From a virus (Duplodnaviria > Heunggongvirae > Uroviricota > Caudoviricetes), in the IMG/VR virus record IMGVR_UViG_2693429662_000008: DNA of 40,489 bases; one strand, 5' to 3'. Shown here piece by piece: positions 10,092 through 34,883 of the stretch (the stretch's first letter is position 1; every line of letters begins with the position of its first letter). A model generated the notes under the pieces. That model ran no database searches, had not been told where the DNA came from, and was given only the letters and a program-made list of their open reading frames with translations. Made by a program: the position numbers and the translations under genes.

Positions 10092-10699
10092 GCGCTAACT
10101 CGCAGGTTATCAATCAGATGAATGGCCGAAGCCGGATAAAACTCACCACCGACGACAATTTCCCCGGCGGCATAGGGATAAACGGTTAACAGGTCGCCGT
10201 CATAGCAGCTTGCGCCCACATAAGCGCGCCCGGCGGTGCTCAGGCTGATAGCGAGCCCGGTCAGGTGTCGGCTGGCCGGTTTTGCCCCTTCAATCAGTCG
10301 CTCGAGCTCGAGGTACATCTCATCGGTGATGCCTGTCTCGAGTACGCCCACCACAAGTCGGAAAGTTCCGGGCTCTTCGTTGAGCTCCCACCACTCCTTA
10401 ACCTCAATCAGATAGCCCAGCGGCTCCACCACGCGCCGTAATGCGGCGATAGTGCCTTTATGGGCATGAACGTAAAACGCGGAGGCGATAACGCTGCGTT
10501 TTGTCGCCTCCGGCCAGCTCTCATCCCACCGGTCAACCGAAAATGCCCACGCCAGATACGGCAGCAGCCGCACCGGGCAGGTGCGCCAGTTCCACAACGT
10601 GCGAAGCGGTACTGGTACACGCTCAATATCTGCGGCCGCGCGGGCGGCGGCGACCTCCAGCAGCGATGAGCCAACGGGCAACAGTCGGTTATTACTCAT
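10088..10699 (-). CDS. I: Baseplate assembly protein I (P2 gpI)
   Basis: Conserved gpI sequence begins at the internal Met MSNNRLLPVGSSLLEVAAARAAADIE; the longer ORF-track start at 10951 lies inside J and is rejected. Confidence 0.8.
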   Translation of the reverse strand: MSNNRLLPVGSSLLEVAAARAAADIERVPVPLRTLWNWRTCPVRLLPYLAWAFSVDRWDESWPEATKRSVIASAFYVHAHKGTIAALRRVVEPLGYLIEVKEWWELNEEPGTFRLVVGVLETGITDEMYLELERLIEGAKPASRHLTGLAISLSTAGRAYVGASCYDGDLLTVYPYAAGEIVVGGEFYPASAIHLIDNLRVSA

Positions 10700-11604: not shown

Positions 11605-11952
11605 TCAACTCACAGGAATAGTCAGTGACAGGGTTTTGCCGGTGTCCCGGGCCTCGCCGGTCAGCTCAACAATCATCTGACCGTTAAACTGACGCTCGAC
11701 CGTCAGCGAGCTGATGCTGATGCGCGGCTCCCACTTCAGCAGCGCCATATAACAGGCGCACATAATTTGCAGCCTCAGCGCGTCGGTCTGCGGCATATCA
11801 ATCAGGGAGAACAGTAGCGAGCCATAATCGCGGCGCATCACGCGAGATCCAACCGGCGTTCGCAAAATATCGCCACAGCTCTGACGGATGTGATCGGCGT
11901 CAGTGATAGCTCGCCCTGTCTCGCGATTCATGCCGATATATCGGGTTGTCAT
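11605..11952 (-). CDS. W: Baseplate wedge protein W (P2 gpW, gp25-like)
   Basis: 115 aa, same length and position as P2 gpW. Confidence 0.85.
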   Translation of the reverse strand: MTTRYIGMNRETGRAITDADHIRQSCGDILRTPVGSRVMRRDYGSLLFSLIDMPQTDALRLQIMCACYMALLKWEPRISISSLTVERQFNGQMIVELTGEARDTGKTLSLTIPVS

Positions 11953-12590
11953 TTCGTCCCCTCCGTCCAGGCTCCACCTCTTTGCACACCGCCGTGACCG
12001 TGGTCATCCACCACCACGCCATTTGATGAGAGTTTGCCGCCGGTGTGCTCGATATCGCCGCTCATCTTCCCGCCTTTGGTGACCTCGAGCGTGGCGGTCG
12101 TCAGTTTGTTGGTGCAGACAACTTCCGGGGTATCAAGGGTGATGCGGGTCTCGGCTTTCACCGTCACCAGCGGTACCGTCGCGATGATGGAATCCGACGC
12201 CGTAACGTCTGCGGTTTTAATACCGCTCACGGTCAGCGCGCTGGTCTCCGGCTCGTACTCGATAACAGCCCCGTCAGGAAAGGTGATGTGAAAAGCATCA
12301 GCCGACACCGACGGCGCGGGGTGTTCATCCGAAAAAATGCCGGGTAGCACAAAAGCCGTGTCCAGCTCACCACCGACGGCCAGCAGTAAAACCTGCTCAC
12401 CCACAGACGGAGCCCACCAGACACGTGAGCGACCGGCGCGCGCAGTCAGCCACTGAAGCCAGTCGGTAACAATGCCGCCAGTCTGGACGCGACAGCGCCC
12501 GTCATCGAGGCCAACCTCGACAATAACGCCGGTTCGGATCAGATTGCGAAGGAGGCGCTGAATGTCCTGAAGAGTGGATTGTGTTTTCAT
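11949..12590 (-). CDS. V: Baseplate spike/assembly protein V (P2 gpV)
   Basis: 213 aa, MKTQSTLQDIQRLLRNL N-terminus; overlaps the W start. Confidence 0.9.
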   Translation of the reverse strand: MKTQSTLQDIQRLLRNLIRTGVIVEVGLDDGRCRVQTGGIVTDWLQWLTARAGRSRVWWAPSVGEQVLLLAVGGELDTAFVLPGIFSDEHPAPSVSADAFHITFPDGAVIEYEPETSALTVSGIKTADVTASDSIIATVPLVTVKAETRITLDTPEVVCTNKLTTATLEVTKGGKMSGDIEHTGGKLSSNGVVVDDHGHGGVQRGGAWTEGTK

Positions 12591-12675
12591 GCTGGGAAGG
12601 ATGAAGGAAAAACACCTTCAATGTAATTGAGCGGTGTTGTATGCTTTTTAGTACAACTTCAAGAGGATAACCAAA

Positions 12676-13389
12676 TTGGATAACAAGGAATATCAGAGGC
12701 ACTTTGGAATAATAACTGATGAATTACAAAAGCCTTCCGATAAACATTTGAGAGCATTTACGCAGGTTGCTGACATTAGAAAGTTTGAAATTGAGATGTA
12801 TTGGAAAAGAGCTACGTATTTCTGGACCATTATTGCTATTACTTTTACTGGTTATTTTGCTTTAGCCTCCGCAAATAGCTTTCCGTTCAAAAATGCATTT
12901 TCTCTTTTGCTTTCCAGTATGGGATCCGTTTTTACTCTTTCATGGTTTTTGGTAAACAGAGGTAGCAAATACTGGCAGGAAAACTGGGAAAATCACTTAG
13001 ACCTGATGGAAAACGGCATAACTGGGCCGCTCTATAAAACTGTACTCTCACGACCGTCAGTCGAAGCCAAAAAAAACGCACCTCAACTTGCGAGTACTGA
13101 TAAAGATTTTATCGACAAACATATCACCGGCCCCAAAAAAATATCAGCATCCAAAATTAACCAATTAGTTGCATTTTACTTGCTTGGCATATGGTTAATA
13201 TTAGTAATGACAACAATTACTAACATCTTAAAACTATCATTCTGGAGTGAATCCACGATAGAAGTAGTGTTGAGCGTGGGAGTTTTAATTTGGTCAGCAA
13301 TAGCCACTAGTTTAATGTTTTGTAAGTCAGCCACCTATACAGGAATACAGACTTCAGAGGCAAGAAAACGCTCTTCGAATTTGTTATAA
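12676..13389 (+). CDS. Cargo gene: predicted 4-TM inner-membrane protein of unknown function (possible abortive-infection or exclusion effector)
   Basis: 237 aa from a TTG start preceded by AAGAGGA. Four hydrophobic segments (about residues 50-68, 75-92, 164-185, 197-215) and a charged N-terminal region. AT-rich, opposite strand to the late operon, sits in the S-V moron slot. Confidence 0.7.
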   Translation: MDNKEYQRHFGIITDELQKPSDKHLRAFTQVADIRKFEIEMYWKRATYFWTIIAITFTGYFALASANSFPFKNAFSLLLSSMGSVFTLSWFLVNRGSKYWQENWENHLDLMENGITGPLYKTVLSRPSVEAKKNAPQLASTDKDFIDKHITGPKKISASKINQLVAFYLLGIWLILVMTTITNILKLSFWSESTIEVVLSVGVLIWSAIATSLMFCKSATYTGIQTSEARKRSSNLL

Positions 13390-13502
13390 CGTTGGTGATA
13401 CACTAATAAATTCATTTAAAGCCCTCAGTTTTGGGGGCATGTAATCTCTACTTTCTCACGGAAAGAGAGTCCAGGATGTACACCAGCGCTTGACGCGGAA
13501 AG

Positions 13503-13600
13503 CTAGTCACTGGTGGCAATACTGCGGGTGCGACATAGACTACGCAGGAAGCGCACAATATCCGGAAAGTAGGTTGTGTTTTCGTGTGGGAAAGGATGCC
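13503..13600 (-). pseudogene. Relic of a second gene V 5' end (degenerate duplicate of the V start region)
   Basis: Minus-strand sequence CATCCTTTCCCACACGAAAACACAACCTACTTTCCGGATATTGTGCGC aligns with the real V start CATCCTTCCCAGCATGAAAACACAATCCACTCTTCAGGACATTCAGCGC. ATG is mutated to ACG and there is a frameshift; similarity continues for roughly 90 nt by eye. Confidence 0.45.
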
Positions 13601-13657
13601 GCCTTAGAAGATCGGCGGCAATAGAGGTATGCAGTTCTATCTCTGGTAAAATTTTGT

Positions 13658-14734
13658 TTATTTTCGTTTGCCATAAGACTGGGTTAGAATTGGAGTAATA
13701 TCCTTAGTAAAGATATCTAGTCTTTCTTTTTCGGCTGAGAAAACATACTGTCTGGCTTGAATTACATTTTGCCTACTAATTAAGTTTGACACCTTTTCTG
13801 GTTTGCTTAGTGCAACTTTGGCACCCTTGAATATCAACGCTAAGCCCGGTGATATTGTAAAAATACATCCATTATCAAATGAAAAATCATTTTTTAAGAA
13901 AATAAAAGGAAAATCACTTGAAACAATGGCATATCCCTTAGGTGCTGAGTACAAATATACCCTACAACTACTCTCATTGGTGATTGAGGAAAAAGGTAAC
14001 GCCATAAATCTATGCATCTTTCTAAGTAAGTAAAACATTTCCCTCCGCTGTCCGCTGTCCGCATTAACTAGATACGTTCCTCCCTCCTTTAGTATAGATA
14101 ACAAAGACCTCCATTCAGAACGTGGGATTATGCTCGCACCAGAAGGAATGAGATCCTTATTAGTATTCAGTACTTTCTTGATGGTGGTGTTTATATTTTT
14201 TAATTTTGGCATGGAGCCTTTATCAAAAAAATCATCCATACCTTTGTTTCTATAACATAAAAAACGGGCCATGAAAATTGCCATGTTTTTTAAATCGTTG
14301 AAATCAATCTCATGCAAACCACTACATACTATCGAACGTGCGAATTTTTTTTCCGAAAGCTTGCCAAGCAACCAGTGTCTACGCACGAAATAATGACTAC
14401 CTGAAGCATTTTTAAAATGCTCCTTTAATTTATAAAATTGCCACATTGCGTCTACAAAATCAGGGTAACAATCCTCTAGTATTTTAAAACTGTCCTCAAT
14501 AAAGTTATCTCTATCCCCATCAATATAAAGAGTATGCCTTCGCTCTTGACCACAAATTTTTGTGGCATTAAGAAAAGTAATCCTTTCTTTTATTTGCTTT
14601 TTGGTGGCATCTGTTTTCACAAAACCATAAACAGTATCTTTCCCAGTCTTTGGGTCTTCAGATGTTATTTTAAAATGCCTGATATAAGTTGCAGGCAGAT
14701 AATGCTGATAGTTTTGAAAAGTTCCCTTTGACAT
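13658..14734 (-). CDS. Cargo gene: DUF4238-like protein, candidate single-gene anti-phage defence protein
   Basis: 358 aa from the ATG at 14734 (GGAGG 5 nt upstream); the ORF track TTG at 14746 is an alternative. N-terminal motif HYLPATYIRHF resembles the conserved start of DUF4238 proteins as I recall them (not verified by HMM). AT-rich, and starts 13 nt after the gene S stop. Confidence 0.75.
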   Translation of the reverse strand: MSKGTFQNYQHYLPATYIRHFKITSEDPKTGKDTVYGFVKTDATKKQIKERITFLNATKICGQERRHTLYIDGDRDNFIEDSFKILEDCYPDFVDAMWQFYKLKEHFKNASGSHYFVRRHWLLGKLSEKKFARSIVCSGLHEIDFNDLKNMAIFMARFLCYRNKGMDDFFDKGSMPKLKNINTTIKKVLNTNKDLIPSGASIIPRSEWRSLLSILKEGGTYLVNADSGQRREMFYLLRKMHRFMALPFSSITNESSCRVYLYSAPKGYAIVSSDFPFIFLKNDFSFDNGCIFTISPGLALIFKGAKVALSKPEKVSNLISRQNVIQARQYVFSAEKERLDIFTKDITPILTQSYGKRK

Positions 14735-14747
14735 AGTAACCTCCAAT

Positions 14748-15200
14748 TTACCAAGTCATAATTTTTTTAATGATAATATATTCAACCTCTTCAGTTAAAT
14801 CATTATTGAAACCAATGAGTGGTCGAGTGGGGTATTCAATCCGTCTGCTGTTAATGTTTGGGGCATCCTTTAACCCGTACTGATGCACCTTAGCCATACG
14901 CTGTACCTTGCCGGTAAATTCCACGACCGCCGCGTTATTCCCCGCCGTGGCTTTCATAAAGCGACTGGTACGGAGTTTGGCGAACATTTCCCGCTTAACC
15001 CGGCCTTTTTTGGCTTTTACCGGCTGGCGTTTTCGGGCGGCGTAAGGTGTCCCGTCCGGGGCTTTCTGCGTTTTAATCCGGCGCTGTTGACGGGCTCGCA
15101 GGGTCTTCGCGATATCTGCGGCCATTCTGCGACGGGCGGCAGGTGACAGCGCCGCTATCAGCCCCGCGAGCTTATCGTCAAAGGGTTTAAAGTCATTCAT
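14748..15200 (-). CDS. S: Tail completion protein S (P2 gpS)
   Basis: 150 aa, same length as P2 gpS; the 3' end is AT-rich, suggesting the C-terminus was remodelled by the adjacent insertion. Confidence 0.85.
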   Translation of the reverse strand: MNDFKPFDDKLAGLIAALSPAARRRMAADIAKTLRARQQRRIKTQKAPDGTPYAARKRQPVKAKKGRVKREMFAKLRTSRFMKATAGNNAAVVEFTGKVQRMAKVHQYGLKDAPNINSRRIEYPTRPLIGFNNDLTEEVEYIIIKKIMTW

Positions 15201-15660
15201 GCAATCGACTCACAAGCTCACCGTTAACATACAGCTCAACCGGTCGGGTAACGGGTTCCGGCGGCTGCGGCTCTTCTGCCTGTTCGACGTGGAGCTTATC
15301 CCCTGACTCTTTAACGATGGTGCGCTCGGTCAGCATCAGGCTGATACTGACATCAACGCTGTCGTTGTCGTTGATATCGGCAAAATAGGTGAATCCCTTT
15401 TTACGCCCTTCATCGGTCGTCATAATGTCAGCCTGATGGATGCGCAGCCACGCCTGAATCGGAACAAGTAACAGCTCGATATCATCCGTGAAATCGGTCA
15501 CCACCACATTCAGCGTGTACCGGTTCTCAAACGACAGCGACGTCGCCAGCGTCGAGGCCAGATTCCCGTTGTCGATAAAGACACGCATCATATCGGGGTT
15601 TCGCGCCAGCACCGGCACGGCGTCAGTTAAGGCTTTTCGCAGACTCTTCGGCTTGTACAT
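15193..15660 (-). CDS. R: Tail completion protein R (P2 gpR)
   Basis: 155 aa; position between the lysis genes and S. Confidence 0.85.
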   Translation of the reverse strand: MYKPKSLRKALTDAVPVLARNPDMMRVFIDNGNLASTLATSLSFENRYTLNVVVTDFTDDIELLLVPIQAWLRIHQADIMTTDEGRKKGFTYFADINDNDSVDVSISLMLTERTIVKESGDKLHVEQAEEPQPPEPVTRPVELYVNGELVSRLHE

Positions 15661-23462: not shown

Positions 23463-23638
23463 CCCCACCTACAGCCGCCCGTCGTGGCGGCTTTACCCCC
23501 ACCGCACACAACACCCTCAGCGCCACGACACGCCGTCGCCGCTTCGCTTCACCTCGTAACTCACCCACTACAACAACAACGCCACAGCGACGCGCCCAGG
23601 CGCTGAATAAATAAATTAAATACCACGCTCAGCGCGCA

Positions 23639-23657
23639 ATGCTATCCCCGCCACGCC
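23639..23657. other. Candidate cos site (19-nt cohesive-end sequence)
   Basis: Minus-strand reading GGCGTGGCGGGGATAGCAT differs at one position from the phage 186 cohesive end as I remember it (GGCGTGGCGGGGAAAGCAT). Location just beyond the portal gene is as expected for P2-family phages. Relies on recalled sequence. Confidence 0.45.
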
Positions 23658-23803
23658 TGCCCGCTTTATGGGTCGGTTTTAATGCAGTTGCATGACCACT
23701 CTGGATCTGCGCCAGCTCTGGCATTACACGTCCAGAACTAGCAAGCCTTGCGAATGCAAAACCATGCTTCTTATACATGCACAGCTAAAAACAGAAAATA
23801 ACA

Positions 23804-23832
23804 TAAAAAAACCGGCATCAAGATGCCGGTTT
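23804..23832 (-). terminator. Rho-independent terminator downstream of the acyltransferase gene
   Basis: Hairpin CCGGCAT / ATGCCGG with a 4-nt loop, followed on the minus strand by a run of seven or eight T. Confidence 0.65.
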
Positions 23833-23929
23833 AGTTCATATCATATCATGCTTGCACTTGTGGCCTATAAATGTGCTGAAAATACTATTAAGTAAAACAT
23901 CCATGATCATCGTTCTGCTGAAGCCCTGT

Positions 23930-25147
23930 TTAATTAGCTTTATCAAGGCGTCCCCCCACCACCATCCGCTTGTAATTTATTGCGAACAACTTAATTTTTT
24001 CAGGGAACTTTGACGCCAAAATTATTGACTTTCTGTCTACATATGAATAAAAGGGCATTGATATCAAAATAGTTATCATCGAAGTTAAGATAAATGTAAC
24101 AAACGCACCAACGGACGGCGACGCAATGTTTTTGTAAACCCAAAAACCAACTATAGATATAACAAATGGATGAAGCAAGTATATTGAAAATGACAACTTC
24201 CCAATAAACAAGACTACATTTTTGCTCATCCCCCTTAAACATCTCCCATTCACAAAGACAGAAGCAATAATCAAAAAAGAACCAAGCGATATTGTAAACT
24301 CTGGCCATTGTATTAATATACCGCATTGAAACTGAAGGTAGAGGTAAAATTCAACCAGATCTTTATACGCAGTGCTCGCCGGTGCATACCCAACAAGATA
24401 AAGGCCAATAAACAACATAAGAAGCGATACAAACTTTCTTAACCGTCCATTATTTTCACTTATCTCGAAAGTTGATAAAAACACACCAGAAAGGAAAAGC
24501 CCATAATAAATTACATTAATACTACCAGACAAAAACATGCAAACAAATGAAATAAACGACAACCAGCGAAGAATGGTCTTGTTCTCACCAAACAGAGATA
24601 TAAATCCGTATACCAATATAGAACCAAAAAACTCAATACTAATAGTCCACAGAACATAGTTATACTTTATATTACCAAAAAGCATAGCGCCAAATGAAGC
24701 ATCCCATATGGCTGACACTATATTCCCATCAAAACTAAACGCAGTCATTAACGGCATTGATGCAGCGGGGCTATCCTTATCCGGAAAAAAGCCCAACAAC
24801 ATTATAAAATAGCAAATAATCACAGATGCTGCTACGGGAACCCCAAGCCTAATGTATCTCTTCAATGCTGATGCTTGTATATAACGTATTTCGTTATTAT
24901 TTTTTTGGCAACTCAGTGACAAAACCAACCCGCTCAAAACAAAGAATAAGCTAACAGCAGATCCCCCCTTATAGAAAAAAGTAAAAGGGCTATTAAATAA
25001 ATTTTCTTGCCACTTGCTATCAAACATACTGCCAGAATGCACCGAAGGTATAAACATTAAAAATGAATGCGATAAAACGACAGCCATGGCTGCCACACCT
25101 CTTATCCCATCAAAGATTTTTACATTATTTCTCTCATTATCACTCAT
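23930..25147 (-). CDS. Cargo gene: membrane acyltransferase, acyltransferase-3 family (O-antigen/polysaccharide acetyltransferase-like; probable lysogenic conversion gene)
   Basis: 405 aa, about ten hydrophobic helices, N-terminal FDGIRGVAAMAVVLSHS motif typical of acyltransferase-3 (Oac-like) proteins. Strongly AT-rich; sits between cos and the replication region where P2 carries tin/old. Confidence 0.85.
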   Translation of the reverse strand: MSDNERNNVKIFDGIRGVAAMAVVLSHSFLMFIPSVHSGSMFDSKWQENLFNSPFTFFYKGGSAVSLFFVLSGLVLSLSCQKNNNEIRYIQASALKRYIRLGVPVAASVIICYFIMLLGFFPDKDSPAASMPLMTAFSFDGNIVSAIWDASFGAMLFGNIKYNYVLWTISIEFFGSILVYGFISLFGENKTILRWLSFISFVCMFLSGSINVIYYGLFLSGVFLSTFEISENNGRLRKFVSLLMLFIGLYLVGYAPASTAYKDLVEFYLYLQFQCGILIQWPEFTISLGSFLIIASVFVNGRCLRGMSKNVVLFIGKLSFSIYLLHPFVISIVGFWVYKNIASPSVGAFVTFILTSMITILISMPFYSYVDRKSIILASKFPEKIKLFAINYKRMVVGGRLDKAN

Positions 25148-25440
25148 GCAAAAAACCTTTTATAATAAAAAATGTCATTTCGATTAACGTATTGTATTGG
25201 TTATTATTGTGTTATAACTGACAATCAACCTTAAAAAAACGCGGCATTATAGCACCTTAAGCCTGTTGTATGAATATCATTATTGTTTTGACAGGAAGAG
25301 TTCCGTTTACGCCCCACCTAACCTTCGGAGCACTGAGTAGTGCTCCCAATGAGGTTGGAATAAGGGGAGATTCAAAAAATAGCTGACCATTCTATGCAGG
25401 CAACCCAACTACCAGCATACAACTTGTTTTTTCTCGCAAC

Positions 25441-25623
25441 TTACTCAGCCTTTGTTAATCGTTCTTCAGCATGGGTTGCAGAGAAAACCAGTGAAAAGGA
25501 GTTATTTTTCATCAAGTTGCCTCTCACTATTTCTGCAATCAAATTCAATGCGATTTCACGGTCTCTTTCCTTACAAGTCCCTTCAGCCGTTAGACGCGCA
25601 ATCATTTCGACTCGCTCAATCAT
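25441..25623 (-). CDS. Small ORF under a LexA box (position of the 186 tum antirepressor; possibly truncated)
   Basis: 60 aa from the ATG at 25623 (MIERVEMIARLTAEG...), 46 bp downstream of a consensus LexA box. The longer ORF-track start at 25734 would translate the operator itself and is rejected. Function inferred only from position and regulation. Confidence 0.35.
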   Translation of the reverse strand: MIERVEMIARLTAEGTCKERDREIALNLIAEIVRGNLMKNNSFSLVFSATHAEERLTKAE

Positions 25624-25668
25624 AACGTGCTCACTTAATTCTCTATCCACACAACCTCCACAACGAGA

Positions 25669-25688
25669 TACTGTATAAACATACAGTA
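25669..25688. promoter_or_regulatory. LexA operator (SOS box)
   Basis: TACTGTATAAACATACAGTA: palindromic CTGT-N8-ACAG with flanking TA, close to the consensus TACTGTATATATATACAGTA. Confidence 0.7.
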
Positions 25689-25766
25689 ACACGTGTTGAT
25701 AAAAAATGTGAAGGAAAAAAACCAATAAATACACTGTATGTGCATGATATGGATGAATATTAACGG

Positions 25767-30207: not shown

Positions 30208-30783
30208 TTGATACTTGATACTCAGGTGAATAACGACGAGTTACTGGATAGAATCTGTCAAGTATATGGTTTTACTCAAAAAATCCAGCTAGCCCGGCAT
30301 TTCAATATTGCCGCCAGTTCCCTACAAAACCGCTACACGCGAGGCACTGTTTCTTATGATTTTGCCGTACAGTGCGCATTAGAAACCGGGGCAAGCCTAC
30401 TATGGCTTCTTACGGGGCAAGGCTCTCAATATGACGGCAAAAAGTCTCCAACGGATCCGAAAACGATAGACGCCTTCACTCTTAGTGATGGAAAGCTCGA
30501 AGAAAATTCACCATTGAGTATTGATGCTGGTTTCTTTAGTAAGCAAATGTCAAAAGGTATTGCTGTTCGCGCCGATGGAAAGCTGCACTTTATAGAACAA
30601 GATGCCTCACTTTCTGATGGCCTTTGGTTGGTTGATATTGAGGGGGCTACCAGCATCAGAGAATTGACGCTCCTACCCGGTAAAAAGTTACACGTTGCTG
30701 GCGGCAAAGTACCGTTTGAGTGCGGGATAGATGAGATAAAAACGATTGGCCGTGTAGTGGGTGTATACAGCGAGGTTAATTGA
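30208..30783 (+). CDS. cI: CI immunity repressor (186 CI type)
   Basis: 191 aa; helix-turn-helix region (QKIQLARHFNIAASSLQNRYTRG) and conserved C-terminal domain (LSDGLWLVDIEGATSIRELT...GRVVGVYSEVN). TTG start with AAAGGA 7 nt upstream; a GTG at 30226 is an alternative. Confidence 0.85.
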   Translation: MILDTQVNNDELLDRICQVYGFTQKIQLARHFNIAASSLQNRYTRGTVSYDFAVQCALETGASLLWLLTGQGSQYDGKKSPTDPKTIDAFTLSDGKLEENSPLSIDAGFFSKQMSKGIAVRADGKLHFIEQDASLSDGLWLVDIEGATSIRELTLLPGKKLHVAGGKVPFECGIDEIKTIGRVVGVYSEVN

Positions 30784-31787
30784 TGACTGTCCGTAAAAAT
30801 CCGGCTGGCGGTTGGATTTGTGAGCTCTACCCAAACGGTGCAAAAGGCAAACGTATCAGAAAGAAATTCGCTACTAAAGGCGAGGCGCTGGCGTTTGAGC
30901 AGTACACCGTTCAAAACCCGTGGCAGGAAGAAAAGGAAGACAGGCGCACGTTAAAAGAGTTGGTTGATTCATGGTATAGCGCTCATGGCATTACACTGAA
31001 AGACGGCTTGAAACGCCAGCTAGCCATGCACCATGCTTTTGAGTGTATGGGCGAACCACTTACACGCGATTTCGATGCGCAGATGTTTTCCCGCTACCGA
31101 GAAAAACGGTTAAAAGGCGAGTACGCCCGTTCAAACAGAGTGAAAGAGGTATCGCCTCGCACGCTTAATCTTGAGCTGGCCTACTTCCGGGCTGTGTTCA
31201 ATGAGCTAAACCGCCTCGGAGAATGGAAGGGTGAAAACCCACTGAAAAACATGCGCCCATTCCGCACAGAAGAAATGGAAATGGCCTGGCTGACTCACGA
31301 CCAGATTTCGCTACTGCTCGGAGAGTGTAAACGGCATGACCACCCTGATTTAGAAACTGTGGTAAGAATTTGTCTCGCCACTGGCGCACGGTGGTCTGAG
31401 GCCGAGAACCTGAGAAAAAGCCAGCTTGCGAAATACAAAATCACATACACCAACACGAAAGGCAGAAAAAACCGCACCGTTCCAATTAGCAAAGAGCTCT
31501 ATGATTCTCTGCCTGATGATAAAAAAGGCAGGTTGTTTAGTGATTGTTATGGCGCGTTCCGGTCTGCGCTGGAAAGAACAGGCATCGAATTACCGGCAGG
31601 GCAACTTACCCATGTTTTACGCCACACCTTCGCCAGTCACTTTATGATGAATGGTGGTAATATTCTGGTCTTGCAGCGCGTGCTCGGTCATACCGACATC
31701 AAAATGACAATGCGTTACGCACATTTCGCCCCAGACCATCTGGAGGATGCAGTAAGGCTAAACCCACTGAACAACAACAGAGATTAG
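30780..31787 (+). CDS. int: Tyrosine integrase (P2/186 integrase family)
   Basis: 335 aa; C-terminal catalytic motifs HVLRHTFASHFMMNGG and LGHTDIKMTMRYAHF (R/H-x-x-R...Y); start overlaps the cI stop. Confidence 0.9.
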   Translation: MMTVRKNPAGGWICELYPNGAKGKRIRKKFATKGEALAFEQYTVQNPWQEEKEDRRTLKELVDSWYSAHGITLKDGLKRQLAMHHAFECMGEPLTRDFDAQMFSRYREKRLKGEYARSNRVKEVSPRTLNLELAYFRAVFNELNRLGEWKGENPLKNMRPFRTEEMEMAWLTHDQISLLLGECKRHDHPDLETVVRICLATGARWSEAENLRKSQLAKYKITYTNTKGRKNRTVPISKELYDSLPDDKKGRLFSDCYGAFRSALERTGIELPAGQLTHVLRHTFASHFMMNGGNILVLQRVLGHTDIKMTMRYAHFAPDHLEDAVRLNPLNNNRD

Positions 31788-31797
31788 CCCCATTAAG

Positions 31798-33261
31798 TCA
31801 TTTGCCGAGCATCTCTCTTAAATCTTGAGCCCAATGCGTATCGTCAGATTGGATCGTTCCTTCAACATCAGTAAGCAGTTTTTGCTCAAGAATTGTCTCG
31901 GCATTTCGACTCTGGCTAAAGTATCTTACCGTTTCGGCAAAGTCCCAATTCTCATCTGCAAGCAGGCGCGGCTGGAAAGAATGACAGTAGATTGCAGCTA
32001 TATCTTTACCCATAAAGTCAAAATCAGAAATCAATTCGCAAATTTTCATATCACGTGCAAATTCGATCTGAGGGCCATGCAAGGTTTCATATCCAATATG
32101 AATTATTGTTGATTCTCCAATCGGAGCCTGCTTTACAGCCTGAACAAGTACCCTTTTTATATCTTTTGCCTTTTTATCGACAGACTCATCAGCGAGACAA
32201 ATCCATTTTGCGCAGAAAGGCATTTCTATCTCATCAATGAATACATTTATTGTACTAAGTTCATCATTGCTAAAAGTGCATAACTTTGCGTTGCAAACCA
32301 TTGTATAACTTCCAAACGGGTCATACTGGTCATCTAATAAGGAATTTAATTGAGGAGAAGGATATTTCACATGCCACTTTCTTAAGTGGTTATCCACCCG
32401 TTCCATATCAATTAAGTTAGCCTGAACCAAAATATCATCGCTCTCACATACTGCAATCTTACCTTTCACAAGATGATCAGAGCCGTAAATTTTTGCTACA
32501 GCACCGAGAAACACATCGATACGCGTTTTTACTATTTCAGTTTTGAAAATCACATCAAAAAAAACTGGCTTATGGTATCGAGTAATCAATGGTCGAGCCA
32601 TTTCCCACCGCTTCAACCACTCCGCCCTTTCTTCTTCTGAGTACTGAGTCACCTTTGCTAATCGCTTGCACTCAACATAAAAAATATCAGTGCCTTTAAC
32701 AACTTTGAGGTCTGGTGTTTTATGAGCTCCTGTTTCTGGAATGAACTCAACTTCCCAGCCATTTTTCAAATAGCAGATAGCCACAACCAACTCAAACAAA
32801 ATGGAATCAGGCTGGTTGATTGTCTTAACAAGCAAGTCATTTAATTTGGATTCAATACCTTTGACCTGCTTCAACTTTTCGCTATGTTCACCGATAACTG
32901 CGAAAAAATGCCAAATTCTTGACGACTGAGCTGGCTCATCTACTGTTGGGCGATCAGCCAAAGATTCAACTAAGTACAAATACCATGCAATCCAGTCATC
33001 ATAGAATGCCAGGCGTGCATCTTTCTCATGGAAAGAAACGTCAGATTTTCCTGTGAAAAGGCGCTCCGACATTTCGCGGAAGTAAGCCAAAACCGCCCCA
33101 CGACGCTCAACCCATTTATCTTCACCCATTACATCAATAAACCAACGGTATGCTGTTTTTATCTCTTTGACTAATGGTGCATCATGTCTATGATTGAAGC
33201 GTTCAAAAAATGCAGCATACTCATCTTCAACACTCTGATTTTTGGTATTTTTTTCACCCAT
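31798..33261 (-). CDS. Cargo gene: large protein with a PD-(D/E)xK nuclease motif, candidate defence/abortive-infection nuclease
   Basis: 487 aa from the ATG at 33261 (AGGTGGA upstream; the ORF-track start at 33294 is an alternative). Motif FELVVAICYLKNGWEVEF...TPDLKVVKGTDIFYVECKRL fits the E...PD...(D/E)xK pattern. No P-loop seen. AT-rich; lies between int and the distal att core, convergent with int. Confidence 0.75.
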   Translation of the reverse strand: MGEKNTKNQSVEDEYAAFFERFNHRHDAPLVKEIKTAYRWFIDVMGEDKWVERRGAVLAYFREMSERLFTGKSDVSFHEKDARLAFYDDWIAWYLYLVESLADRPTVDEPAQSSRIWHFFAVIGEHSEKLKQVKGIESKLNDLLVKTINQPDSILFELVVAICYLKNGWEVEFIPETGAHKTPDLKVVKGTDIFYVECKRLAKVTQYSEEERAEWLKRWEMARPLITRYHKPVFFDVIFKTEIVKTRIDVFLGAVAKIYGSDHLVKGKIAVCESDDILVQANLIDMERVDNHLRKWHVKYPSPQLNSLLDDQYDPFGSYTMVCNAKLCTFSNDELSTINVFIDEIEMPFCAKWICLADESVDKKAKDIKRVLVQAVKQAPIGESTIIHIGYETLHGPQIEFARDMKICELISDFDFMGKDIAAIYCHSFQPRLLADENWDFAETVRYFSQSRNAETILEQKLLTDVEGTIQSDDTHWAQDLREMLGK

Positions 33262-33505
33262 CGTGATTCCACCTAGCTTATGCGGTTTATGCATTCAAGA
33301 TTAACTAACTTGCATGTTATCATTTTTGATATCAGGCAAGTGTTAGTCACGCTATAAAGGCTAGGTTGCCGTTTAAAGGCAATATGATAAGTGGCGATAA
33401 AGTGGCGGTAGAAATGGCTGATAATGTCTAATCACTGGCAAACGCTGGCCATTTATGTCAATGATAAATAAAGCAAACTATTGATTTTCGGTTGTTCAGG
33501 TAGGA

Positions 33506-34301: not shown

Positions 34302-34784
34302 ATGTTAGTTAGTAAAAGCAACGGATTTAACGCTAGCGCAGTTTTGGGTAGTGGAAGTTATAATGAAAATAAATCTTCTAAACACATGGAGCTACTAGCT
34401 CATAGTATTTTAAAATTAATTTGTAAGGAAGCTGCATCAGAGACGTATCGCGGTGCTCTTGAAACTTTACAAAAAATGATGTCTGAATGTATATATCAAG
34501 AAGGCAACGCCTTTGTCATTATGGGAGCTGGAGAACAATTAAAACGTATTAAATATGAAGTTGGTGAAAATAACTTAAAGGTATTCAACGTACACTTTAA
34601 TAATAATCACGAGTTAGTTAGTTCTGGTGAGCCTGACGTAATATGTTTAAGCAAGCAGGTCTGGGAAAATCTTCTCATTAAACTAAAGCTGGAAAACAAT
34701 GAAAATGTGTTTTCTGAAACTAAAAAATTATCGAATAAAAATAATGCCGATCAGTTTTTTGAATGCGCTAAAAGAAATGAATAG
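34302..34784 (+). CDS. Hypothetical protein, AT-rich islet
   Basis: 160-aa ORF in a strongly AT-rich region outside the prophage; no recognisable motif. May correspond to the ypjC-like gene of the K-12 ileY neighbourhood (memory only). Confidence 0.45.
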   Translation: MLVSKSNGFNASAVLGSGSYNENKSSKHMELLAHSILKLICKEAASETYRGALETLQKMMSECIYQEGNAFVIMGAGEQLKRIKYEVGENNLKVFNVHFNNNHELVSSGEPDVICLSKQVWENLLIKLKLENNENVFSETKKLSNKNNADQFFECAKRNE

Positions 34785-34883
34785 AACCTTTTCGATAATA
34801 TAAGAAAAAGTGATTTTCATGTTGGTTTACTTAAGCCAAGTAGTACGCGTAGTGTTATTTTAGAAACGCCGCCAAATGTCTGT

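What the first reader, a model, noticed from the sequence alone, without database searches (positions are those of the whole stretch)
12591..14747. AT-rich cargo insert between tail genes S and V carrying two convergent genes of unknown function
The late operon is otherwise tightly packed and GC-rich, but between the gpS stop (14748) and the gpV start (12590) there is about 2.1 kb of visibly AT-rich DNA. It holds a 4-TM membrane protein (12676..13389, plus strand) and a 358-aa DUF4238-like protein (13658..14734, minus strand). In P2 this S-V junction holds the non-essential AT-rich orf30, so it is a plausible moron slot, and prophage moron slots are frequent carriers of anti-phage systems. The membrane protein has no function I can assign and could be an exclusion or abortive-infection effector.
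Basis: partly seen in the sequence, partly recalled or inferred. Interest (0 to 1): 0.85.

Follow-up and report, generated by a model that had tools for sequence, protein, structure and literature searches.

The report
Two accessory genes in P2 prophage slot
Between two tail genes of a P2-family prophage of E. coli lies a known variable slot that here holds two separately acquired accessory genes, a widespread uncharacterised membrane protein and a divergent member of a phage-defence family, both of them good but untested candidates for protecting the host against other phages.

Summary
Window 12591-14747 has 37% GC against 55-57% in the flanking late genes. It holds a 4-TM protein (12676-13389, +) and a 358-aa protein (13658-14734, -) between gpV and gpS.

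The membrane protein is a clear member of Pfam PF24838 (8xMP; RefSeq "RipA family octameric membrane protein"). The second protein is a borderline but real member of DUF4238. It belongs to a rare clade that the PADLOC model of the validated anti-T7 DUF4238 protein does not hit.

The two genes are stacked single-gene cassettes rather than an operon. A relic of the native S-V junction lies between them, made of a terminator-type hairpin and a degenerate gpV 5' end. Each gene also occurs alone or with unrelated partners elsewhere.

In a survey of 77 related viral contigs the S-V slot was empty in 34 and filled in 43. The filled slots carried 774-3908 bp of AT-rich cargo in 48 protein clusters, many of them known defence genes (Pycsar cyclase, DRT reverse transcriptase with SLATT, ThsB, GmrSD).

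Anti-phage function is therefore a well-supported inference but remains untested. I rate this a new member of a known kind. The 8xMP family is the interesting lead.

The parts
11949..12590 (-). gpV, baseplate spike. It is the left anchor of the slot.
   Evidence: Pfam Phage_base_V, Phage_spike and Apex. It is 95.7% nt identical to the empty-slot relative L097 up to position 12603.
12591..12675 (.). Native P_V control region kept next to gpV. It contains TGT-N12-ACA at 12638-12655, an Ogr/Delta-type activator-site pattern. It must also hold the promoter and 5' UTR of the divergent 8xMP gene.
   Evidence: The motif was found and occurs 9 times in the whole window. Its centre lies 55.5 nt from the V ATG. 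In P2 the annotated activator site 10239-10266 lies at the same distance from V at 10308. The RBS AAGAGGA at 12662-12668 is visible. Promoter function is inferred.
12604..14864 (.). Full extent of the foreign block relative to the nearest empty-slot P2-like relative.
   Evidence: blastn against L097 and L101: homology covers 11900-12603 and 14865-15300 only. The block replaces 169 bp of L097.
12676..13389 (+). Cassette 1: a PF24838 (8xMP / RipA-family) 4-TM inner-membrane protein of 237 aa, antisense to the late operons.
   Evidence: Pfam 8xMP E 3.6e-36, 124.4 bits against a cut-off of 30. RefSeq WP_053881147.1. Hydropathy. AF2 model with pLDDT 83.5, all-helical. About 2000 homologues.
13537..13600 (-). 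Degenerate relic of the gpV 5' end and leader (V'). Its start codon is mutated (ATG to ACG) and it carries a 1-nt deletion. It separates the two cassettes.
   Evidence: A 64-nt local alignment to 12540-12603 scores 52; 300 shuffles gave a mean of 16.6 and a maximum of 25. Sequences are shown. In the Serratia relatives L006 and L007 the same position holds a 41-aa gpV fragment with tblastn E 2e-10.
13597..13620 (-). GC-rich hairpin (GCCGCC-N10-GGCGGC). It is the terminator-type element of the native S-V junction and now lies downstream of the DUF4238 gene.
   Evidence: It matches the empty junctions of L135 and L144 (GGGAAAGGATGCCGCC...GGCGGCAAT). RNAfold gives a 7-bp stem. P2 annotates a rho-independent terminator at the same place. 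The consensus terminator scan did not call it because it lacks a T-run.
13658..14734 (-). Cassette 2: a divergent DUF4238-family protein of 358 aa. It is in sense orientation, 13 nt after the gpS stop, and has its own GGAGG ribosome-binding site.
   Evidence: Pfam DUF4238 27.7 bits against a cut-off of 27, aligned over residues 13-337 to model positions 1-277 of 281. RefSeq WP_053881148.1. The subfamily profile reaches only DUF4238 proteins. No PADLOC hit.
14748..15200 (-). gpS, tail completion. It is the right anchor of the slot. Its last 39 codons (14748-14864) are AT-rich and came in with the cargo block.
   Evidence: Pfam Phage_tail_S E 1.3e-33. DNA homology to L097 begins only at 14865.

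Best explanation
**What it is.** The region is the S-V ("orf30") variable slot of a P2/186-family prophage integrated next to a tRNA with a CAT anticodon in E. coli. In this phage the slot holds two stacked, separately acquired single-gene accessory cassettes.

**Cassette 1, next to gpV and antisense to the late operons.**
- It encodes a PF24838 (8xMP/RipA-family) inner-membrane protein with four transmembrane helices.
- The most conserved part is a cytoplasmic helical stalk, formed by the helix before TM1 and the helix after TM2.
- I infer that it assembles into a homo-oligomeric ring, as the family name says.
- I infer that it acts on its own in the lysogen as a membrane-level exclusion or abortive-infection factor. 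It would either block genome entry of a competing phage or open and collapse the membrane potential once infection is sensed.

**Cassette 2.**
- It was inserted between the gpS stop and the native terminator.
- It encodes a cytoplasmic protein from a rare clade of DUF4238. One distant member of that family gives strong T7 resistance by an unknown mechanism.
- I infer that it is a second, independent single-protein defence gene.

**Shown.**
- The gene models, family memberships and predicted topology.
- The foreign origin and the junction relic between the cassettes.
- The independence of the two genes in other genomes.
- Purifying selection on both genes.
- The defence-rich nature of the slot.

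**Inferred.** Expression in lysogens, oligomeric state, trigger, effector action and the anti-phage phenotype itself.
For: **Hotspot.**
- Of 77 gpV-anchored viral contigs, 34 have an empty junction (75-87 bp, GC 0.52-0.65) and 43 are filled (774-3908 bp, GC 0.33-0.39).
- The filled slots carry 59 ORFs in 48 clusters.
- Cargo includes PycC, RT_UG17/DRT with SLATT, ThsB, GmrSD_N, AAA_21/AriA-like, an nSTAND NTPase, NsnA/PD-T4-2_A-like, PDC-S06/S21/S60 and one DUF4238.

**Stacking.** The V' relic and the native hairpin lie between the two genes.

**Independence of 8xMP.**
- It sits alone in the S-V slot in L012, L015, L085 and L177.
- It sits with unrelated partners in L009 and L180.
- It is a single-gene integron cassette between VCR repeats in V. 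cholerae.
- It has no conserved neighbour in 77 species-level loci.

**Independence of DUF4238.**
- A relative sits alone on E. albertii IncFII plasmids and another alone in an Edwardsiella S-V slot.
- In Serratia the DUF4238 gene is intact while the 8xMP gene is frameshifted.

**Selection.** dN/dS is 0.08-0.13 at dS about 0.5 for both genes. Both are retained after the prophage decayed in Pantoea.

**Family precedent.** A single DUF4238 protein from a P2 hotspot protects against T7 (PMC9122126).

**Neighbours of 8xMP elsewhere.** They include Abi_alpha, AbiTii, HEPN_Toprim_N with Mrr_cat, a methyltransferase, integrases and transposases.
Against: - Neither protein hits any PADLOC v2 model, and the validated DUF4238-Pers model misses this clade. 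No homologue close enough to transfer a phenotype has been tested.
- The slot also carries non-defence cargo such as GGDEF with MASE4 and acyltransferases.
- Some 8xMP homologues sit next to housekeeping genes such as ThiC, Tex and the DNA polymerase III beta subunit.
- No sigma-70-like promoter was found upstream of the 8xMP gene. For DUF4238 there is only a 9-of-12 match.
- The oligomeric state rests on the family name alone, and no solved structure resembles the model.
- The DUF4238 structure prediction failed with pLDDT 45.
Confidence: 0.55

Rival explanations
1. The two genes form one two-component system. DUF4238 would be a cytoplasmic sensor or enzyme, and the 8xMP protein would be its membrane effector or its regulator.
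For: - The convergent pair is kept together with the same spacing (268-272 nt) at 88-90% identity in E. coli, Pantoea and several metagenome contigs. This holds even where the prophage has decayed to a gpV remnant.
- Both genes show the same dS (0.46-0.51) and strong purifying selection.
Against: - The genes are transcribed convergently and are separated by a relic of the native junction, including a terminator-type hairpin.
- The 8xMP gene is frameshifted while DUF4238 is intact in two Serratia samples.
- DUF4238-clade genes occur without 8xMP.
- 8xMP occurs alone or with unrelated partners.
- None of 77 species-level 8xMP loci had a gene similar to this DUF4238-clade protein (blastp E <= 1e-3) anywhere in the roughly 6-kb flanks held.
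Confidence: 0.15
2. The 8xMP gene is a lysogenic-conversion or envelope-physiology gene rather than an immune gene. It would change membrane or cell-envelope properties constitutively. Any effect on phages would be indirect, for example on adsorption or stress tolerance.
For: - The family is found in many phyla, often outside recognisable mobile elements and sometimes next to housekeeping genes.
- Its cytoplasmic motifs are nearly invariant. This fits a universal cellular ligand better than a variable phage trigger.
- The same prophage carries an Acyl_transf_3 acyltransferase, an envelope-modification type of gene, in its other hotspot.
- The RefSeq name points to a protein called RipA. From memory, the only membrane protein of that name is Francisella RipA, which is needed for intracellular growth. 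I could not verify that link.
Against: - The gene recurs in at least five deeply diverged lineages (43-55% identity) in a slot that mostly carries defence genes.
- It moves as an integron cassette and on an AlpA-type island.
- Its neighbours elsewhere include Abi_alpha, AbiTii and a HEPN/Toprim-Mrr protein.
Confidence: 0.2
3. One or both genes are passenger DNA with no current function, carried along by recombination in a permissive gap between two operons.
For: - The slot tolerates anything from 75 bp to 3.9 kb.
- P2 orf30 is non-essential.
- The 8xMP gene has decayed in Serratia.
Against: - dN/dS is 0.08-0.13 for both genes at dS about 0.5, while the intergenic spacer is only about 75% identical.
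- Both reading frames remain intact after loss of the surrounding prophage.
- The 8xMP family has about 2000 homologues with invariant motifs.
Confidence: 0.07

Closest known systems
Rst_DUF4238 / PADLOC "DUF4238-Pers": the single DUF4238 protein from the P2 A-Q (cos-proximal) hotspot that gives strong T7 resistance (Rousset et al. 2022, PMC9122126)
   Same: - Same Pfam family, DUF4238.
- A single gene of similar size.
- Carried as AT-rich cargo in a variable slot of a P2-like prophage of E. coli.
   Different: - It sits in a different slot (S-V rather than A-Q).
- It belongs to a rare clade: 14 clusters at 90% identity and 22 representatives among 1.84 billion proteins.
- It scores only 27.7 bits on the Pfam model and is not hit by the PADLOC DUF4238-Pers model.
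- It is in sense orientation inside the late transcription unit.
- No phenotype is known.
P2 orf30 and the three variable loci of P2-like phages: TO region (tin/old), Z region (fun) and the orf30 locus (PMC3091744; Vassallo et al. 2022, PMC9519451)
   Same: - Same position between gpS and gpV, AT-rich and non-essential.
- The 8xMP gene is antisense to the late genes, as orf30 is.
- The locus is already recognised as a site of horizontally acquired genes.
   Different: - P2 Orf30 (261 aa) has no Pfam or PADLOC hit and no similarity to either protein here.
- The two hotspot papers I read describe defence cargo only for the TO and Z loci.
Prophage inner-membrane exclusion and abortive-infection proteins: lambda RexB, HK97 gp15, and SLATT-type 2TM effectors (recalled from memory as functional analogues)
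   Same: - Small multi-pass or oligomeric inner-membrane proteins.
- Encoded by prophage accessory genes and expressed from the lysogen.
- They block entry or depolarise the cell.
   Different: - No sequence relationship: Pfam at E <= 0.1 finds only 8xMP.
- 8xMP works without a dedicated partner gene, unlike RexB with RexA or SLATT with its enzyme.
- The analogy is a proposal about how it works, not a membership claim.
PF24838 "8xMP" / RefSeq "RipA family octameric membrane protein"
   Same: Full-length strong match at 124 bits. All family motifs are present.
   Different: - The family itself has no function that I could trace.
- There is no PDB relative by sequence profile or by fold.
- No paper in the searchable library explains the name.

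Membership tests
Pfam PF24838 (8xMP / RipA-family octameric membrane protein) | Score above the Pfam gathering threshold over the whole model | tested here: met
   124.4 bits against a cut-off of 30, E 3.6e-36. Residues 26-181 align to model positions 2-135 of 136.
Pfam PF24838 (8xMP / RipA-family octameric membrane protein) | Family motifs and multi-pass membrane topology | tested here: met
   All 46 invariant columns of a 44-sequence alignment are present in the window protein. It has four hydrophobic helices, and the K/R-rich N-terminus and central loop suggest that both termini are cytoplasmic.
Pfam PF24838 (8xMP / RipA-family octameric membrane protein) | Homo-octameric assembly | not testable with these tools
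   Only a monomer model could be made. No solved relative was found.
Pfam PF14022 (DUF4238) | Score above the gathering threshold with full-length coverage | tested here: met
   27.7 bits against a cut-off of 27, so marginal. The alignment spans residues 13-337 and model positions 1-277 of 281. Pfam domains precomputed by the database list PF14022 for 13 of the 14 close-homologue clusters.
Pfam PF14022 (DUF4238) | Transitive homology: remote relatives found with a profile of the subfamily are themselves DUF4238 | tested here: met
   I scanned 10 of the 22 profile hits, and DUF4238 was the only Pfam family found in each. Eight reach Pfam's cut-off of 27 bits, with E-values down to 1e-17. Two fall just below it (26.6 and 18.6 bits).
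Validated defence gene Rst_DUF4238 (PADLOC DUF4238-Pers, PDLC03000) | Match to the model built on the experimentally validated protein | tested here: not met
   There is no hit at E <= 1 for the window protein or for its relatives P0126, P0132 and P0135. More typical DUF4238 proteins hit the model only weakly, at 1e-4 to 5e-6.
Validated defence gene Rst_DUF4238 (PADLOC DUF4238-Pers, PDLC03000) | Protection against phage, with T7 as the tested case | not testable with these tools
   This needs a plating assay. The only precedent is PMC9122126.
P2 orf30 homologue | Sequence similarity to P2 Orf30 (AAD03281.1) | tested here: not met
   BLASTP of the 8xMP protein against Orf30 gives a best E of 2.8. 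The DUF4238-like protein was not compared with Orf30 directly. Orf30 has no Pfam or PADLOC family at all.
Prophage defence hotspot in the sense of Rousset 2022: a small locus between two conserved genes with high cargo turnover and defence genes | Conserved anchors, presence/absence polymorphism, many unrelated cargo sets, and known defence genes among them | tested here: met
   34 empty and 43 filled slots. 48 clusters among 59 ORFs. PycC, DRT/RT with SLATT, ThsB, GmrSD_N, AriA-like and PDC candidates are among the cargo.
Two-gene operonic defence system | Conserved co-occurrence and co-orientation of the two genes across the families | tested here: not met
   Co-occurrence is seen only among close relatives (>= 77% identity). 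More distant members of each family occur alone or with other partners. The genes converge and are split by a junction relic.

The most novel reading that the evidence does not exclude
PF24838 (8xMP/RipA family) would be a new, very widespread class of autonomous single-protein membrane immunity. An oligomeric inner-membrane ring would use its near-invariant cytoplasmic stalk (KFEIE-YWKR and KYWQENWENH) to sense a universal consequence of phage infection. It would then gate the ring to stop the infection. The gene would move as a one-gene cassette through prophage hotspots, satellite-like islands and integrons. As a secondary point, the S-V slot would count as a third defence hotspot of P2-like phages, alongside the TO and Z loci.
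Probability: 0.3. Interest if true: 0.7.

Novelty: new member of a known kind. Interest (0 to 1): 0.5.

Why it matters
P2-like prophages are among the main carriers of anti-phage genes in E. coli. Their variable slots have already yielded new systems such as PARIS and the validated DUF4238 protein.

- **The slot.** The orf30/S-V slot behaves like the two published hotspots. This adds a cheap anchor pair (gpS and gpV) for mining new defence genes in genomes and short metagenome contigs.
- **The membrane protein.** The 8xMP family is the most useful lead. It has about 2000 homologues in many phyla, extreme motif conservation and no partner gene. It also has repeated, independent residence in a defence-rich slot and in an integron cassette array. 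It is small (237 aa), so a test by cloning and phage challenge would be quick.
- **The DUF4238 protein.** This clade would extend a validated but mechanistically opaque family to plasmids and a second prophage slot.

If both genes turn out inert, the locus remains a clean example of cassette stacking, because the fossil junction between the cassettes is preserved.

Tried and rejected
1. **Origin of the names "RipA" and "8xMP".** Seven literature searches found nothing relevant, and every "RipA" passage I opened was RIPA buffer. One further search, for octameric anti-phage membrane proteins, found no papers. A look-up of a Francisella RipA topology paper by DOI failed because it is not held. 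The link to Francisella RipA is from memory only and is not used as evidence.
2. **Solved-structure relatives of 8xMP.**
   - phmmer gave only spurious matches to designed repeat proteins and GPCR chimeras.
   - The profile search gave nothing below E 0.4.
   - Foldseek against the PDB gave nothing at or below E 0.001.
   - The afdb50 library was unavailable.
3. **Structure of the DUF4238 protein.** The AF2 model on 13 sequences had pLDDT 45 and was unusable, so I ran no fold search on it.
4. **Isolated phage genomes (INPHARED).** Neither the DNA nor either protein matched.
5. **Defence and naming libraries.** PADLOC and NCBIfam gave no hit for either protein. PHROGs gave none for 8xMP and only a non-significant match (E 0.06) for the DUF4238-like protein.
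6. **P2 Orf30 as a homologue.** Rejected.
7. **A conserved partner for 8xMP.** All-against-all clustering of neighbours in 77 loci found none. The partners in L009 and L180 are unrelated to DUF4238 by hhalign.
8. **The junction relic.** blastn-short missed it. A targeted local alignment with a shuffle control found it.
9. **Regulatory scans.** The consensus scan found no terminator and fewer promoter-like sites than in shuffles, so it gives no support for any regulatory claim.
Full report
**Observation**

The window is a P2/186-family prophage of E. coli. It is identical over the queried stretch to five complete genomes, for example NZ_OZ501679.1. It is integrated next to a tRNA with a CAT anticodon at 1575-1650. 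The late genes lie on the minus strand.

- gpV is 11949-12590 and gpS is 14748-15200, both by Pfam.
- The 2157 bp between them have GC 0.374. The late genes have 0.547 and 0.567 on either side.
  - 12676-13389 (+) starts at TTG behind AAGAGGA.
  - 13658-14734 (-) starts at ATG behind GGAGG, 13 nt after the gpS stop.
- P2 itself carries the antisense, non-essential orf30 at this junction.

**True extent of the foreign DNA**

The closest relative with an empty slot is L097, at 95.7% and 97.2% nt identity in V and S. Against it, homology ends at 12603 and resumes at 14865. The foreign block is therefore 12604-14864 and brought its own AT-rich version of the last 39 codons of gpS.

**The membrane protein**

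- It is a strong, full-length member of Pfam PF24838, "8xMP, octameric membrane protein family" (E 3.6e-36). RefSeq names it "RipA family octameric membrane protein".
- It has four hydrophobic helices, and the K/R-rich N-terminus and central loop suggest that both termini are cytoplasmic.
- The AF2 model has pLDDT 83.5. It shows two helices of 44 residues each, which are too long to lie wholly within the membrane.
- By the hydropathy boundaries, the extra helix lengths before TM1 and after TM2 lie in the cytoplasm. I read them as a stalk, and they hold the near-invariant motifs.
  - Before TM1: DIRKFEIE-YWKRA-YFW.
  - After TM2: RGSKYWQENWENH-D-LE--TGPLYKT.
  - Before TM3: SxSKINQ.
- The family has about 2000 homologues. 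It occurs in at least 342 species-level genomes across many phyla.
- I could not trace the source of the names in the literature library.
- PADLOC, NCBIfam and PHROGs have no model for it.

**The DUF4238-like protein**

- The Pfam score is marginal (27.7 bits against 27) but full-length.
- The clade is small. There are 14 clusters at 90% identity, even when searching with a profile. There are 22 representatives among 1.84 billion proteins.
- I scanned 10 of the profile hits, and DUF4238 was the only Pfam family found in each; eight reach the cut-off, several over the full length of the model. Family membership therefore holds.
- The PADLOC model of the validated protein (DUF4238-Pers) does not hit this clade. 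The T7-resistance phenotype reported by Rousset et al. (PMC9122126) is a family-level precedent only.
- Structure prediction failed.
- Invariant polar residues include H11, R19, K40, H67, E80, E87, E142, R157, R162, D167, R242 and D274. These would be compatible with an enzyme, but that is only an inference.

**Two stacked cassettes, not an operon**

Between the convergent genes lies a fossil of the native S-V junction.
- A GC-rich hairpin at 13597-13620 matches the empty junctions of other P2-like phages.
- A 64-nt degenerate copy of the gpV leader and first 17 codons sits at 13537-13600. It scores 52, against a maximum of 25 in 300 shuffles.
- In Serratia relatives the same place holds a 41-aa gpV fragment with E 2e-10.
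- The functional P_V region stays next to the real gpV. It carries TGT-N12-ACA at the same distance from the V start as in P2.

Read in the direction of the late genes, the order is: S, DUF4238, native terminator, V' relic, antisense 8xMP, P_V, V.

**Independence in other genomes**

- 8xMP is the sole cargo of the S-V slot in four other P2-like prophages: L012, L015, L085 and L177.
- It shares the slot with unrelated genes in two more. L009 has a DUF5677-like gene and L180 has a 359-aa gene of unknown family.
- It sits on an AlpA-type island in Klebsiella.
- In V. cholerae it lies between two consecutive copies, 814 bp apart, of a 136-nt direct repeat. From memory, this repeat is the VCR attC site of the superintegron, which would make the gene a single-gene integron cassette.
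- The slot-resident 8xMPs are only 43-55% identical to each other. That is as far apart as they are from non-phage homologues.
- DUF4238-clade genes occur alone on E. albertii IncFII plasmids (66% identity). One also occurs alone, in the opposite orientation, in an Edwardsiella S-V slot (41% identity).
- In Serratia the 8xMP gene is frameshifted while DUF4238 is intact.

One observation points the other way. Close relatives keep the pair together even after prophage decay, in Pantoea and in metagenome contigs. Both genes show the same dS (about 0.5) and dN/dS of 0.08-0.13. This shows that both genes are maintained by selection and have travelled together for some time. It does not show functional coupling. 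I give the two-gene rival 0.15.

**The slot as a hotspot**

- I anchored on gpV in IMG/VR. Of the contigs returned, 77 had both S and V.
- 34 had an empty junction of 75-87 bp with GC 0.52-0.65.
- 43 had 774-3908 bp of cargo with GC 0.33-0.39. These held 59 ORFs in 48 clusters, and none had 8xMP or this DUF4238 clade.
- Cluster representatives hit these defence families:
  - Pycsar cyclase
  - RT_UG17/DRT reverse transcriptases and SLATT
  - ThsB
  - GmrSD_N
  - AAA_21/AriA-like ATPases
  - an nSTAND NTPase
  - NsnA/PD-T4-2_A-like proteins
  - PDC-S06, PDC-S21 and PDC-S60
  - DUF4062, DUF4917 and one DUF4238
- Non-defence cargo was also present, namely GGDEF with MASE4 and acyltransferases.
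- The orf30 locus was already known as one of three horizontally variable loci of P2-like phages (PMC3091744; see also PMC6823313).
- The two defence-hotspot papers I read treat only the TO and Z loci.
- I ran no control interval, so "defence-rich" is descriptive rather than a measured enrichment.

**Mechanism**

My best reading, at confidence 0.55, is two independent prophage accessory genes that serve inter-viral competition.

- *8xMP.* I propose an oligomeric inner-membrane ring whose conserved cytoplasmic stalk is the sensing or gating element. It would either block genome entry or depolarise the cell on infection.
  - Its antisense position between two Ogr-dependent late operons would allow expression in the lysogen and interference once the phage's own late transcription starts.
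  - All of this is inferred.
- *DUF4238.* I propose a cytoplasmic single-protein defence of unknown chemistry. Its position upstream of the native terminator puts it inside the late transcription unit. Whether it also has a lysogenic promoter is open.
- *Rivals.*
  - An envelope-physiology or lysogenic-conversion role for 8xMP (0.2).
  - A coupled two-gene system (0.15).
  - Functionless passenger DNA (0.07).

**Novelty and verdict**

The slot, both protein families and the idea of prophage defence hotspots are all known. This is a new member of a known kind.

This analysis adds four things:
- the exact anatomy, with a preserved junction fossil;
- evidence that the S-V slot carries defence cargo like the two published P2 hotspots;
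- the recognition that PF24838 is a mobile, autonomous, highly conserved and functionally unassigned membrane protein family that repeatedly occupies this slot;
- the placement of the DUF4238 gene in a rare clade outside the validated one.

Interest is 0.5. A specialist would not be surprised, but 8xMP is a concrete and cheaply testable candidate for a new single-gene defence family.

Noticed in passing
window 23463-25766 (ORF 23930-25147, -): The classical P2 TO/cos-proximal hotspot, between the portal gene and the replication endonuclease, is also AT-rich (GC 0.36-0.42). It holds an Acyl_transf_3 family acyltransferase with no PADLOC hit, plus a DinI pseudogene annotated in RefSeq. This is an envelope-modification type of cargo rather than a recognised defence system.
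   Followed up: partly
window 31798-33294 (-): A 498-aa ORF lies directly after the prophage integrase (30780-31787) in an AT-rich stretch. It has no Pfam and no PADLOC hit. RefSeq calls it a hypothetical protein.
   Followed up: partly
window 34302-40453: Beyond the prophage lie DUF5507 and DUF5508 genes (34302-34784 and 34884-35675). After them comes a 1331-aa AIDA/pertactin-type autotransporter adhesin (36458-40453). This looks like a separate AT-rich island.
   Followed up: no
window 1575-1650: ARAGORN calls a tRNA with a CAT anticodon tRNA-Met, while RefSeq annotates it tRNA-Ile. It lies immediately outside the ogr end of the prophage and is the likely attachment-site tRNA.
   Followed up: no
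L032 898-1847 (Vibrio cholerae ATCC 14035): An 8xMP homologue (1061-1702) lies between two consecutive copies, 814 bp apart, of a 136-nt direct repeat (TAACAAACGCCTCAAGAGGGACTGTCAACGCG...). Seven copies of the repeat are present in 6.5 kb. From memory, this is the VCR attC repeat of the superintegron, so the gene would be a single-gene integron cassette.
   Followed up: partly
L006 7382-8095 and L007 3955-4667 (Serratia marcescens): The 8xMP gene is split over three reading frames, so it is a frameshifted pseudogene. The adjacent DUF4238 gene (77% identity) is intact. A 41-aa gpV fragment lies between the two.
   Followed up: yes
L185 4634-7063 (Pantoea agglomerans) and L182-L184, L186-L187 (metagenome contigs): The 8xMP and DUF4238 pair survives at 88-90% identity with the same spacing. 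The surrounding P2-like prophage is reduced to a 93-aa gpV remnant in L185 or is gone. This fits retention of cargo after prophage decay.
   Followed up: yes
L097-L176, S-V slots (for example L100 3536-4921, L127 1782-4826, L156 1221-3836): The most frequent cargo in the sampled slots is a protein of about 450 aa with a DUF4062 domain, found in 6 of 43 filled slots. It has no PADLOC hit. Several large single ORFs of 790-1015 aa were not examined individually.
   Followed up: no
L178 3588-6666 (Klebsiella oxytoca): An 8xMP homologue lies on an island with DUF6387, an AlpA-type regulator and an H-NS N-terminal-domain protein directly upstream. This is a satellite-like or integrative-element context.
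   Followed up: no
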